Assembly: GCA_964016885.1 (NCBI GenBank)
Contig: OZ024741.1
Coordinates: forward strand, 194,184,001 to 194,248,000
Direction of reading: 5' to 3'
Length of the DNA stretch: 64,000 nt
DNA from: Eledone cirrhosa
Taxonomy: Eukaryota
In this document: positions 12,452 to 60,985 of the stretch, in pieces
How positions within the stretch are numbered: position 1 is the stretch's first letter
Layout of the letters: each line of letters starts with the position of its first letter
Translations under genes and position numbers: made by a program
The notes under the pieces: model-generated
Seen by the model: the letters and a program-made list of their open reading frames with translations, nothing else
What the model was told of the DNA's origin: nothing
Database searches by the model: none

Positions 12452-12612
12452 TGTAGGTCCCGGGTTGAGTCGGGGATAACCACAGTAAGTAAGGTACTCA
12501 ATACATGGCAGAGTAAAGATTTTTTATTGTATAGAAGGAGCTTCTACAGGACTAGTACTGTTTCATCTGAATGAAACAGTACTAGTCCTGTAGAAGCTCC
12601 TTCTATACAATA
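12452..12612 (-). mobile_element. PLE-derived fold-back palindrome P1 (42-bp perfect arms spanning 12525-12612) plus one-sided tail 12452-12524
   Basis: The inverted repeat is directly visible. The sequence is homologous to the hammerhead-bearing ends at 14807-14940 and 55877-55941, and it is flanked by (TA)n. Confidence 0.8.
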
Positions 12613-12719
12613 TATATATATATATATATACAGAGAGAGAGAGAGAGATAGAGCTGAGTGTGTGTATATATACTACTTAAAGAGGTCTAGCAAAACTAAT
12701 TAAAAAGAGAATTAATCTT

Positions 12720-13380
12720 AGATGAGATATAACATGGCTTTGTGCCAGGATGACAAACTACTGATGCCCTCTTAATGAAACAACTGAAGGAGAAGTATCT
12801 AGCTAGCATACTTCATCAACCTGGAGAAGGCTTATAAGGTTCCACCCTCAGTAGATTAGTGATTGCTAAGAAGACTAGGGGTAGATCGATGACTTAGAGT
12901 AAGTCATCCATCTACTCCTAGTCTTCTTACATTGATAGAGATGCTGTCAGTCAGATGAGAGCTTGAGTTCAGTAGCAAATTTATCATGCAGGTTAGTGTC
13001 CACAAGAGCCTAGTACTCAGCTTCATGGTTATTAGATATCTCCACACTATAACAGAGGAGTTTAAATACTTATATGCTGATGACAAAGGTCCTATAGTTG
13101 AATCTATTAAAGATTTAGAAAAGAAATTCCAGACATGGAAACAAAAACTAGAATCAAAAGCTTCAAAAGGAATTTAGCAAAGGCAAAAGTTTTAGTAAGT
13201 ATGAAAAAAGGCAGAATATAACTGCTAAAGGGCTATGCTCAATATGTAGAAATAAATTAGATAGGAATTTCATACTGTGTACTAAATATAAACTATGAGT
13301 GAATAAGAGATATGTTGGAATTAGAGACATGCTAACAGAGTAGATAGACTTTGTATGGGACAGATAAACAGTGGAAGTCC
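12720..13380 (+). mobile_element. Highly degenerate RTE RT fragment
   Basis: ITEEFK..YADD remnant and a degenerate PHD region, with many stop codons. Confidence 0.7.
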
Positions 13381-13711
13381 TAACATGTATCCCTTCATGG
13401 AGCCTGTACTCTAAACTTTTGTCCAATTATTCCTGCCAAAAAGGTTCTATCACAAACATAGATATGTAGGTTACTCTGATCTCTGACCACAAAGGGTCAA
13501 CTGAGTGGGAAGGGCTACGTGGGATATAGTCATGGATCCTTGTTCTCACACTAATTACTGAAAAGAAGGAATGAAGGAAGTGGGTATTTAATTGGATAAA
13601 TTTCTTCAAAGTTACATTTATAGAGTAAGTCAATCATGTTAAAATTATGTTATTAACTATAATTAGAGATAAGAAGAAGAAAGCAATATTTAGAAATTAT
13701 GGATTATTTAC

Positions 13712-13806
13712 CTTTGAGATTATTTCAGCAATATTACGTAATGACTGCTTGATTGGATATTTAGCAAGATCCCACTGAAACCTTGACAGGTAAGTAACAA
13801 GATCAA
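13712..13806 (-). CDS. ATP6V1C1: V-ATPase subunit C, coding exon 4 ([32 protein letters not shown]), 95 nt
   Basis: Carries the hallmark [15 protein letters not shown] motif. Acceptor gtttacag, donor gtaaat, phase consistent. Confidence 0.96.
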
Positions 13807-13894
13807 CTGTAAACAAACAAAGTGTTGTTAGTTTGACACTATACAATAGTAAACAGTAAACAATAGTAAATAGAATGTAGTGTTATTAGTGGCA

Positions 13895-14808
13895 CACTAA
13901 ACAATAGGGGATGGCAATCGGCCATCTTACCTGTTAGATATGCTGGCCTTGGCCTCCGGTCCCCGATCTCACTGGCTTTGTCGGCGTTTCTTTCATCGGT
14001 AACCTCATGCTGCGTCCTCATCAACAAGGTTCTCCTAAATACAATGGAACCCACTGTGATCAAGGAACATGAGGCCGCCTGCGAGACGTGGAACCAGCTT
14101 GGACTTAGCCCAGTAGACATCCCTCTTCCTTCTCCCCCTGCTGACGTCAAGTCCATCCAGTTCAGACAGGCTAGTGCACCAGTTCGACCAGCACAGCCTT
14201 GCATGTTTTCACATGGCCTCACAACCCCACAGCCATGCCTTACCCTACTTCTCCACTGGCACGCAGCTAGACAATGATAGACTGCGCATCAGGGTTTCCC
14301 TGAGGCTTGGCCTCCGGATCTGTGAGTCACACAAATGTCACTGCAGATCCACCATGGACTCTTTCGGCCTCCACCCACTTTCTTGTCACTACAGTGCTGG
14401 CCGCCTTCCATGCCAGGCCGCTCTCAATGAGGTCATAAAGCAAGGCTTGGATGCTGCAGGCTTCCCCTCCCAGCTTGAGCTGATGGGGCTGGCAAAAGGC
14501 CAGACGGTATGACCATCTTCCCATTCCCCAGTGGTAAACCCTCATCTGGAATACCACATGCAGTGACATATTCTCCAGTGGCAACCTGGTGCAGTCAGCC
14601 TTGGGCTTCCTCCCTACTTACGGTGGTAAGTAGGGAGGTAGCCCAAGGGCCAAGGACACCAGTAGTCTCCACTGCTAGGGGCACGACCGCAAACCTGTTG
14701 GAGAGTGACCGATACTTGGAGAGTTAGCCCTCCTCAGCCTAAAGTGTAGCAAAATCTGGGTTAGTCAGTCGCAGACTGCACCAGGTTGCCACTGGAGAAT
14801 GTGTCACT
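13895..14808 (+). mobile_element. CRE-like (RLE-type) non-LTR retrotransposon 3' fragment, with its last part inverted (about 14622-14808)
   Basis: LPVRYAGLGLR, the zinc-knuckle region (C.C....D..GLHPLSC) and KRPDG are present. The minus strand of 14622-14808 continues with KYRSL..VVPLAVETTGVLGP. Confidence 0.78.
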
Positions 14809-59217: not shown

Positions 59218-59276
59218 ACTTCTATCTTATACCTAACTCCGTGTAGTTGATTATTTGTCTAGTGAATTTCTATGGG

Positions 59277-59819
59277 CTAAAAGGAATGACTAAGTAAAAG
59301 TTGCTCGTAAAAGCAGTCTTTCTCTTCTTTACCTAGGCCTGCCTGGGGAGCATAAGCAGAGATGATTGTCAGTAGTCTCTTGCCTACAACTAATCTAAGC
59401 TTAATTATTCTATTACTAACTCTAACTACCTCCATTGTCTTATTGATCCACCTCTCAGCCAGTAATATGCCCACCCCACCTAACCCATCATCATTACCCA
59501 CCCAGAAAAGCTTATAACTACGATGTTTGCCTGCGATTAGTCTTGCAGAGGCACCTCTCCATCTCACCTCTTGCACACAGCACACATCCACATGCCTTTT
59601 CTCCAGCATCTCCGCTATCTCACCAGATCTACCTGTTAGAGTGCCAACATTAAGTGTGGCAACTCTGAGATGCGACGTCCCATTCTTTTTCCTGTTGTGC
59701 GATTGCCTGATGACGGTCGTGGGGTTCTCACACATGGCCCCACTACCGTGCACAGCCCTAACATGGTTACTGTTATTGCTGTTTACACAGTTGTTGCAAT
59801 TCTTATTTGTTGTGCTCAT
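59277..59819 (-). mobile_element. RTE LINE 5' fragment (APE N-terminus)
   Basis: LRVATLNVG, VQEVRW and ISAYAPQ motifs; overlaps in sequence with the start of the 39704 copy. Confidence 0.88.
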
Positions 59820-59834
59820 AATTTTGGCATTTAT

Positions 59835-60120
59835 TATACTGGTTGGATGCCCTTCCTAACACCAGCACCACTTCACAGCATGGACTAGGTGCTTTTATTC
59901 GTGCCACCAGCACTAGAGAGATTGTCTTACTGGACTCAGGGGCCCTATCCACCCCTCCATTTTACAGCATGGACTGGGTGTTTTTATTCGTGCCACCAGC
60001 ACTAGAGAAGTCGTCTTACTGGACTCAAGGGCCCTATCCACCCCTCCATTTTACAGCATGGACTAGGTGTTTTTATTCATGCCACCAGCACTAGGGAAGT
60101 TGTCTTACTTGACTTAGGGG
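59835..60120 (-). repeat. RTE 3'UTR remnant with a ~90-bp tandem repeat x3
   Basis: tggatgcccttcctaacacc motif; acagcatggactaggtg.. occurs three times. Confidence 0.75.
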
Positions 60121-60775
60121 ACTTCTCTACCCCGCACCAATTTATTCGGAGTGGTAGCTCTCCTAGACGAGTTGCCTACATTGCAACTTACGGAGCCTCC
60201 GTCCACCCCTTGTCTGTTCTATGATATATTCACAAGGGAGTGGTTAGCATACAGCATTGGGCATGTATACCGAATGTGGTAGGGGTATGTGATAACCCTA
60301 ATGGCTGATACATAGAATTTTAACACAGTTTACAAGTCACATACACACAAATATATAAATATACAACAAATACAGCCATCTTTACGAAAAGTGAGAGCTT
60401 TCACTTTCATACAAGCCGTTACACATACTATTTGACATAATTTTGGAGATATAAAGAAAGAAAGAAATCAAAACCTATCTTTAAGAAATCCACACAGAGT
60501 AATCAGACAGACAGTCCTATACGAGCAAGACAACCACTCTTGCCTCAAGTGGGAAAACTCCCGTTCAAACCCATGCAAGCATGGAAGATGGACATTAAAC
60601 GATGATGATGATGATGATGATGATGATGATGATATATATATATATTACAAATACACACATATACACATATATATACACATACACATATATATATATATTA
60701 TACATATACATATATATATAAATATACATACATATATATATATATATATATATATATATATATATATATATATAT

Positions 60776-60985
60776 ATAGGAACCAGTAAGACCCCGACAG
60801 CTGAGCTCAAGCCGTTTCGACGGCTAATTCTGGACTAAATGCAATTTAGTCCAGAATTAGCCGTCGAAACGGCTTGAGCTCAGCTGTCGGGGTCTTACTG
60901 GTTCCTATTACCCACTCTACTACCTCAAGTATTGAGTACTTTGGTGCGTTATGGTCCACCTGGTTCCTTACCACATTTCCTTCGT
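60776..60985 (+). mobile_element. Fold-back palindrome P6 (60776-60908, 65-bp perfect arms, 3-nt loop) plus tail 60909-60985, inside (TA)n
   Basis: Perfect inverted repeat containing the GAAACGGCT-tgagctc-AGCTGTC^ggggtc hammerhead half. Confidence 0.82.

What the first reader, a model, noticed from the sequence alone, without database searches (positions are those of the whole stretch)
12452..60985. Six unrelated fold-back palindromes share one architecture, and five turn around inside a hammerhead ribozyme: a candidate ribozyme-guided fold-back retroposition route
Seen: P1 12525-12612, P2 33939-34137, P3 50223-50519, P4 51558-51918, P5 56261-56388 and P6 60776-60908 differ in sequence. Each is a hairpin with a one-sided 40-90-bp tail, in or beside (TA)n. 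In P1, P3, P5, P6 and more weakly P2, the arm carries the 3' half of a minimal type-I hammerhead (GAAA, palindromic stem III, NUH, stem I strand) but no CUGANGA. That places the symmetry centre in the expected stem II. For P1 this is confirmed by intact relatives at 14807 and 55891. In P3 and P5, arm symmetry is perfect outside the GAAA/TTTC boundary and imperfect inside it (P3: 0 mismatches in 65 bp vs 8 in 79 bp). Established: PLE pLTRs carry minimal hammerheads and PLEs often show inverted 5' pLTRs. Inference: reverse transcription starts in the tail and copies the old stem II hairpin. The nascent cDNA then snaps back and copies itself, replacing CUGANGA with the mirror of GAAA and leaving an ORF-less hairpin insertion. 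I do not know of this stem-II-specific turnaround being described.
Basis: partly seen in the sequence, partly recalled or inferred. Interest (0 to 1): 0.85.

Follow-up and report, generated by a model that had tools for sequence, protein, structure and literature searches.

The report
Penelope hairpins mark RNA 5' ends
The hairpins are real, stub-sized insertions of Penelope-like jumping genes, and their turning points likely mark where the element's RNA begins (its predicted capped start or, in a minority, its predicted ribozyme cut) rather than the ribozyme's stem II, which would explain how this class builds its mirror-image ends.

Summary
All six hairpins exist. They are the smallest form of the known Penelope-like (PLE) 'inverted pLTR plus one-sided tail' insertion; the scan noted such stubs before in shark windows. 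P6's family is the end of an intact RT/GIY-YIG element with Hydra-clade motifs. The stem-II model fails: centres lie in stem II in 2/41 (P1), 5/18 (P3), 0/20 (P4), 11/17 (P5), 64/69 (P6) hairpins; P2's family has no hammerhead; no P6 arm crosses the stem-II loop; loops are antisense as often as sense (77:69). Instead, arm ends pile up against one upstream wall per family that sits 29 nt behind a TATA box (P1, P6) or 27 nt before a Penelope-type DPE (P3), with an untemplated G there (24/57 versus 11/95 downstream), the mark of a copied cap. A minority class (378 versus 12,757 pattern matches) turns exactly at P6's predicted hammerhead cut. Best reading: both nicked target strands prime cDNA near the RNA's 5' end, both run off it, and the two ends are joined head to head. 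The start sites are inferred; no RNA data were available.

The parts
12453..12612 (-). P1: tail 12453-12524 plus hairpin 12525-12612; tail-bearing arm starts at -2, mirror arm ends at -12 (core GAAA = 0), antisense loop, 6-nt microhomology from stem II; one of 2 of 41 family hairpins that turn in stem II
33939..34175 (+). P2: hairpin 33939-34137 plus tail; piece of a 260-bp tandem, tRNA-containing unit without a detected hammerhead; zero-loop turn at a GTAC palindrome at the 3' side of the tRNA-like part
50138..50519 (-). P3: tail 50138-50222 plus hairpin 50223-50519; ends -80 and -91, upstream of the (degenerate) core 5' half, which is present in both arms (near 50345-50358 and 50384-50397); antisense loop
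51558..52005 (+). P4: hairpin 51558-51918 plus tail; complete type I hammerhead in both arms (51814-51863 +, 51613-51662 -); mirror arm ends at -121, the family wall
56261..56452 (+). P5: hairpin 56261-56388 plus tail; tail-bearing arm starts at 56345 (+4, inside stem III of the true core), mirror arm carries native stem II antisense to -37
60776..60985 (+). P6: hairpin 60776-60908 plus tail 60909-60985 (start of the PLE ORF region); ends -22 and -23; predicted main start at 60848 (-18); core GAAA at 60866; predicted cut between 60888 and 60889 (+23)
14807..14939 (+). Non-mirrored sister copy of the P1 family with CUGAUGA, beginning near the family wall
55879..55990 (-). Sister copy of the P1 family with a complete hammerhead (55897-55935) and the upstream TATAAATA box

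Best explanation
[quoted passage not shown] Shown by sequence: PLE origin (P6 direct; P1, P3 by ORF read-through), one-sided tail, junctions that differ from copy to copy, loops of both orientations, one upstream wall per family, an extra G at that wall, and a second sharp wall at the predicted hammerhead cut in the P6 family. Taken from the literature: a PLE protein nicks and extends both strands and starts at two adjacent internal sites (PMC11167929); pLTRs hold the promoter (PMC2377424, PMC3846280); an extra G marks a copied cap in L1 (PMC11702581). Inferred: because the pLTR-and-tail signal also lies at the 5' end of every transcript started in a pLTR, the protein mostly starts there, 60-270 nt from the cap, and makes stubs; the wall is the transcription start; short trimming and 0-6 nt microhomology or untemplated letters make the joint; stem II is involved only where the start happens to lie in it (P6) or where it lends microhomology (P1 itself); RNA cut by the hammerhead gives the minority class. 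Whether the final joint is made between two ends or through a fold-back of either cDNA is not resolved.
For: Arm ends within -5..+4 of the wall: P1 55/97, P6 89/155, P4 10/50, P3 8/44; 6-40 nt upstream of it: 5, 0, 0, 0. TATA box starts 29 nt before the wall in P1 and P6, RGACGTGY at +28 in P3, TTATAT at -30 in P4 (DPE motif from PMC2377424). Non-mirrored TA-flanked copies, hand tallies of unique loci among the first 100 rows: P1 1 of 50 passes -25, P3 0 of 52 pass -104, P4 0 of 52 pass -121, P6 0 of 53 pass -21 (that pattern reaches only -22); P3 and P4 were run after the wall was predicted. Extra G at the wall: P1 11/15 vs 7/34 downstream, P3 6/15 vs 0/14, P4 5/14 vs 3/38, P6 2/13 vs 1/9; pooled 24/57 vs 11/95, Fisher p 4e-5. 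Loops 69 sense, 77 antisense, 36 zero of 182. Cut-site class: 378 matches, 1 in the control; in 42 of the first 50 loci both arms end within 1 nt of +23, often with A/T-rich untemplated letters; CCCC ends cannot pair with each other; 9 of 48 non-mirrored rows start at +23, 0 at +17..+22. Native P6 pLTR folds into the hammerhead without constraint, with a U3-A8 core, a natural active covariation (PMC3088659). Depth in raw reads and contigs of other runs steps up about tenfold between -32..-22 and -10..0, and opposite-strand joints occur.
Against: No RNA evidence for any start site or cut. The G excess is absent in P6 (2/13 vs 1/9), where TA microhomology hides it, and most wall-ended copies lack the G. 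P5 shows no sharp wall (3/46 ends near -66) and no promoter motif was found for it. In P2 the main pile (-29..-37) is at the T-arm of the tRNA-like part, not at a start, so RNA structure or modification can also set the turn. P3 and P4 ends are spread over 100 nt below the wall. The two arms of a copy mostly share subfamily variants (0.38 vs 0.76 mismatches per 36 nt in P6), which fits one RNA or one donor but also one arm copied from the other. The cut-site class is tiny in P1 (7 matches, 3 at the cut). 45 of 253 rows were corrected by eye.
Confidence: 0.65

Rival explanations
1. One reading: the tail-primed cDNA copies hammerhead stem II, snaps back on it and copies itself.
For: P1 itself uses a 6-nt stem-II microhomology; 64/69 P6 and 11/17 P5 centres lie in stem II.
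Against: 2/41, 5/18, 0/20 in P1, P3, P4; P2 family has no hammerhead; 0 of 155 P6 ends lie in the stretch holding the stem-II loop and 5' strand; antisense loops as common as sense.
Confidence: 0.04
2. One cDNA runs off the RNA 5' end and folds back on itself; antisense loops arise later when the spacer is flipped between the inverted arms during replication or repair.
For: Arms of one copy share variants; joints have 0-6 nt microhomology; fold-backs after cap copying are described for L1 (PMC11702581).
Against: Needs about half of all loops flipped even in young copies whose arms are still identical (P1, P6); does not explain why the mirror arm stops at the tail-less site; zero-loop blunt joints such as CCCC|GGGG.
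Confidence: 0.13
3. The wall is not a transcription start but a stall at RNA structure, or the 5' edge of a few truncated donor copies transcribed from outside.
For: In P1 the wall coincides with the 5' edge of stem I; in P2 the main pile is at a tRNA T-arm; no RNA data.
Against: Same 29-nt TATA spacing in two families whose hammerheads lie differently, DPE at +28 in a third; G excess only at the wall; sister subfamilies share the wall.
Confidence: 0.1
4. Self-priming on an antisense transcript, as proposed for head-to-head PLE junctions by Arkhipova et al. 2013.
For: It was proposed for the same head-to-head palindromic junctions (PMC3846280, discussion read) and allows antisense loops.
Against: The walls match sense-strand promoter motifs, a sense-strand cap letter and the sense-strand hammerhead cut.
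Confidence: 0.05
5. Ordinary MITEs or assembly fold-back artefacts.
For: Hairpin shape; none of the six window hairpins was itself checked in reads.
Against: Junctions differ among copies, the tail is one-sided and runs into a PLE ORF; mirror arms stop at a fixed tail-less site; opposite-strand joints and the depth step are in other runs.
Confidence: 0.02

Closest known systems
EN+ Penelope-like element insertions with inverted 5'-truncated copy and tail (Craig et al. 2021 PMC8557442; Arkhipova et al. 2013 PMC3846280)
   Same: Head-to-head inverted pLTR, one-sided tail, palindromic junctions, partial tandems, (TA)n targets, hammerhead and TATA/Inr in the pLTR.
   Different: Here the ORF-less minimal form dominates (60 to 70% of sampled copies and more), tails are 40-90 bp, and the junctions map to predicted RNA 5' ends; the published proposal is self-priming on antisense RNA.
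Hydra clade of PLEs (Craig et al. 2021)
   Same: RWR, DKT, CxCx5C linker, CxxC and CxH motifs, C-terminal GIY-YIG, hammerhead, (TA)n insertion in the P6 parent (L311).
   Different: U3-A8 hammerhead core with a 54-nt stem II holding the predicted promoter; no tree was built.
Anole Poseidon PAc in vitro (Frangieh et al. 2024 PMC11167929)
   Same: Both strands nicked and extended; two internal start sites that bound the tail; tail lies in the ORF start.
   Different: That paper does not treat the inverted junction and found no RNA ends at the hammerhead cut; here genomic copies end at the predicted cut.
L1 full-length 5' junctions, twin priming and joined RT products (PMC11702581)
   Same: Extra G from the cap; microhomology joints; two RT products joined in opposite orientation.
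   Different: L1 twin priming inverts an upstream segment with little duplication; here both primers copy the same segment and give a hairpin as the routine product.
R2 elements with a 5' HDV-like ribozyme (Eickbush et al. 2013 PMC3774820)
   Same: Ribozyme cut sets the 5' junction, with untemplated letters.
   Different: Different ribozyme and element; here it is a minority class that yields dead stubs.
Non-LTR retrozymes (PMC7229834 listing; bioRxiv 10.64898/2026.07.22.740005) and tRNA-derived SINEs, for P2
   Same: Short tandem non-autonomous unit with PLE-type ends; tRNA-like part.
   Different: No hammerhead detected; tRNA part is internal to a tandem unit; partner element not found.

Membership tests
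EN+ Penelope-like element | Single ORF with RT and C-terminal GIY-YIG in full-length relatives | tested here: met
   P6: 786-codon open frame in L311 with RT and GIY-YIG-type motifs read by eye; 2054 homologs at E<=1e-20, the best carrying PF01541; direct Pfam scan of two partial frames gave 0 families. P1 (L027) and P3 (L035): tail runs into a homologous ORF.
EN+ Penelope-like element | Same, for P4, P5 and P2 | tested here: inconclusive
   P4: homologous ORF joined antisense to one copy (L163), indirect. P5: the only hit is beyond a (TA)n break. P2: none; 260-bp tandem unit.
EN+ Penelope-like element | pLTRs from partial tandems, inverted 5' copy, one-sided tail | tested here: met
   L211/L311; 182 of 253 copies mirrored; P2 tandems.
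EN+ Penelope-like element | Type I hammerhead in the pLTR | tested here: met
   P1, P4, P6 (U3-A8), P3 (degenerate) by descriptor; P5 read by eye; not met for P2. Cleavage not testable.
Hydra clade | RWK, DKT, CxCx5C linker, CxxC/CxH, no CCHH, (TA)n targets | tested here: met
   Read by eye in the L311 frame against section 11 of PMC8557442: RWR rather than RWK, the others as described.
Hydra clade | Placement in the clade by RT phylogeny | not tested
   No reference sequences were fetched.
MITE | Fixed symmetric ends and one shared centre across copies | tested here: not met
   One-sided tail; centres differ among copies.
MITE | Target-site duplication | tested here: inconclusive
   Cannot be read in (TA)n flanks.
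Non-LTR retrozyme (P2) | Hammerhead in each tandem unit | tested here: not met
   Tandem unit of 260 bp met; 0 descriptor hits on either strand.
tRNA-derived SINE (P2) | tRNA-related region with A and B boxes | tested here: met
   ARAGORN calls a tRNA in 7 of 7 loci given.
tRNA-derived SINE (P2) | Pol III transcription; 3' end shared with a partner element | not testable with these tools
   No RNA run listed; partner not found in the loci held.

The most novel reading that the evidence does not exclude
The inverted pLTR with one-sided tail, the hallmark of Penelope-like elements, is the routine product of double target priming: both nicked strands are extended to the RNA's 5' end and joined head to head. 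Tens of thousands of stub hairpins are then a fossil 5'-end map of PLE RNA, recording capped starts (with the cap G) and in vivo cleavage by a U3-A8 hammerhead, and the same machinery moves a ribozyme-free, tRNA-containing tandem element.
Probability: 0.5. Interest if true: 0.78.

Novelty: new variant of a known kind. Interest (0 to 1): 0.6.

Why it matters
How PLEs make their inverted ends and what their hammerheads do are named as open questions in the papers read (PMC8557442, PMC11167929). The junction statistics give base-level predictions (start sites in four families, one cut site, both loop orientations) that CAGE and the existing in vitro PLE assay can test. The cut-site class would be genomic evidence that a PLE hammerhead cleaves in the germ line and that the product is a template. 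In the P6 family the predicted start lies inside stem II, so the capped RNA would lack half of the core and only read-through RNA could cut. For annotation, these hairpins would be miscalled as MITEs or miRNA precursors (sub-threshold miRNA matches).

Tried and rejected
Rfam gave no hammerhead match, only sub-threshold miRNA-hairpin matches. A DNA search for P6 returned nothing because its words are too common; patterns worked. No RNA holder was listed for the P6 pLTR, so starts and cuts could not be read from RNA. One search timed out; one search was aimed at the wrong side of a locus and added nothing. One search used a wrong P6 tally (0/8); one search has the corrected one (1/9). CpG decay explains only about 3-4 of the 8 inner P3 mismatches (7-8 CpG inside, 2 outside); the unevenness is partly unexplained, but both arms copy the same native strand, so it is not native stem pairing. 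A cap-derived C at mirror-arm ends was looked for and is mostly ambiguous with the sense arm. RNase Z cleavage as the P2 pile was rejected: ends lie 3-11 nt inside the tRNA. Arm-versus-arm variants could not separate one from two templates. Dropped before counting: 27 of 280 rows (9 duplicates between samples; 18 second arms, segmental duplicates, composites or unalignable). A repeat-annotation paper (PMC13282606, passages) had nothing on such hairpins. Not-in-print claims rest on searches of an open-access library; older subscription papers on Penelope structure and all supplements were not seen.
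Full report
Observation. The six hairpins are at the stated places, each with a one-sided tail beside (TA)n; 8 long inverted repeats were counted in the window and 0 in each of 20 shuffles. The window lies in a 3.0-Gb genome (G000). I sampled relatives: the 30 best DNA matches each for P1-P5 (40 of 396 to 1125 candidates were scored), and exact-pattern samples in contig order for P1 (30 of 1416 matches) and P6 (70 of 4404; 30 of 13,927 tail matches). Coordinates below are relative to the G of the core GAAA on the tail-bearing strand (for P2, to a fixed motif).

What the families are. A long P6 copy is a partial tandem: inverted pLTR, endonuclease end, 3' region, pLTR, and a tail that runs on into a 786-codon frame with RT and GIY-YIG-type motifs. 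It has 2054 homologs at E<=1e-20 and, read by eye, the Hydra-clade motifs of PMC8557442 (section 11 read). P1 and P3 tails also run into homologous ORFs (43-53% and 32-47% identity); P4 is linked indirectly, P5 not. P2 is a 260-bp tandem unit with a tRNA-like part (ARAGORN 7 of 7 loci) and no hammerhead hit. U3-A8 is a natural, active covariation (PMC3088659, passages).

Test of the stem-II model. For 280 rows I called the 5' end of the tail-bearing arm and the inner end of the mirror arm by extension alignment to real long copies, corrected 45 rows by eye and dropped 27; 182 of 253 are mirrored. Centres in stem II: P1 2/41, P3 5/18, P4 0/20, P5 11/17, P6 64/69. In P6, 0 of 155 ends lie 6-40 nt upstream of -18, where the stem-II loop and its 5' strand are, so the hairpin is not copied. 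Loops are 69 sense, 77 antisense, 36 zero; snap-back of the tail-bearing cDNA allows only sense loops (inference from geometry). P1 itself is one of two family members that use stem II as microhomology, and its loop is antisense.

What sets the turn. Ends pile against one wall per family: -25 (P1, 55/97 ends within -5..+4), -18 with a shoulder at -22 (P6, 89/155), -121 (P4, 10/50), -103 (P3, 8/44); P5 has none sharp (3/46); long copies pass far beyond. A TATA box starts 29 nt before the wall in P1 and P6, an RGACGTGY element lies at +28 in P3, and each wall is an A in a pyrimidine context. RGACGTGY is the Penelope downstream promoter element (PMC2377424, passages), and pLTRs with TATA and Inr are described (PMC3846280, passages and discussion). 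Non-mirrored copies flanked by (TA)n stop at the same walls (hand tallies of unique loci in the first 100 rows: 1 of 50, 0 of 52, 0 of 52 pass it in P1, P3, P4) and often carry an untemplated G there: 11/15 vs 7/34, 6/15 vs 0/14 (positions -102/-101 only), 5/14 vs 3/38, and in P6 2/13 vs 1/9; pooled p 4e-5. In L1 an extra G at full-length 5' junctions reflects the cap (PMC11702581, passages). In runs X22, X23 (raw RAD reads) and X1 (contigs), depth on the native P6 pLTR rises about tenfold across -22 to -10 and opposite-strand joints are present; restriction sites confound the read starts.

A second wall. A pattern for P6-family hairpins turning near the hammerhead cut gave 378 matches (control 1); in 42 of the first 50 loci both arms end within 1 nt of +23, the base after GUC, with none or a few mostly A/T letters between (hand tally). 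The pattern admits ends from +24 up to about +10, so this is not forced. Non-mirrored rows: 9 of 48 start at +23, 0 at +17..+22. A comparable pattern for the start-site class gave 12,757; the two patterns cover subfamilies differently, so about 3% is rough. In P1 the same test gave 7 matches, 3 at the cut. In P2, ends pile at the tRNA 5' end (-99..-104, 7/43) and more at the T-arm (-29..-37), so structure or a modified base can also stop the enzyme.

Mechanism. A PLE protein nicks and extends both strands and starts at two adjacent internal sites that bound the tail (PMC11167929, parts 1-2 of 4 read). The tail is the ORF start, so the signal sits 60-270 nt from the 5' end of any RNA started in a pLTR. 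I infer that both strands are extended, one from the tail end and one from the tail-less site, both run off the RNA, and the ends are joined after short trimming. This gives the one-sided tail, both loop orientations, the wall and the G. Full-length copies need read-through RNA from a tandem. Not resolved: one or two RNA molecules, and whether a fold-back of either cDNA helps the joint. Against: no RNA data, no G excess in P6, no wall in P5, broad spread in P3 and P4.

Known and new. The architecture is textbook PLE (PMC8557442, passages), minimal hammerheads in pLTRs are known (PMC4209133, passages), retrozymes are PLE derivatives (bioRxiv 10.64898/2026.07.22.740005, part 1 of 5), and a ribozyme cut sets R2 5' junctions (PMC3774820, passages). 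The scan reported mini PLE hairpins in three other windows; no note on starts or caps came up. I found no paper mapping PLE inverted junctions to caps or hammerhead cuts, and none on a tRNA-containing PLE passenger (searches; open-access library only, supplements not read).

Noticed in passing
P2 family, L315-L334; window 33939-34175: 260-bp tandem unit with a tRNA-Ser(GGA)-like part, PLE-type tail and tail-less ends, (TA)n targets and no hammerhead: a candidate tRNA-containing passenger of PLEs (1805 candidates).
   Followed up: partly
window 28380-30600 and 35270-35460: Two canonical type I hammerheads (28443-28481 -, 35343-35381 +) of a further family; broken RT and endonuclease pieces related to the P6 parent at 28538-29472 (-) and 29870-30591 (+).
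   Followed up: no
window 15000-16120 (-); L313: 3' end of a different, very abundant GIY-YIG PLE (35,865 candidates) with a minimal hammerhead-like motif read by eye; a 791-codon frame at L313; no BLASTP similarity to the P6 parent.
   Followed up: partly
tails of P1, P3, P5, P6: Each tail begins with a stem-loop a few bases after the tail-less end (ACTC...GAGT or GCTCT...AGAGC), a candidate protein-binding signal between the two start sites.
   Followed up: partly
window 16812-19934 (-), 40502-42115, 47853-49016, 57731-59855: LINE ORF2 copies (APE endonuclease, RT, PHD finger). P2, P3 and P6 sit next to (GAT)n ends of such elements; PLE stubs of several families nest in the same (TA)n tracts.
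   Followed up: no
window 2-6937: 20-bp tandem array, about 351 copies.
   Followed up: no
window 11399-11580, 12036-12425, 12867-12929, 14557-14813, 52043-53334: Further inverted repeats and a 442-bp tandem with inverted ends, not examined.
   Followed up: no
   Followed up: no
L312 (G000:C1:118474000-118479500): A P1-family hairpin with its (TA)n flanks has itself been amplified as a 1.06-kb tandem, three copies.
   Followed up: no
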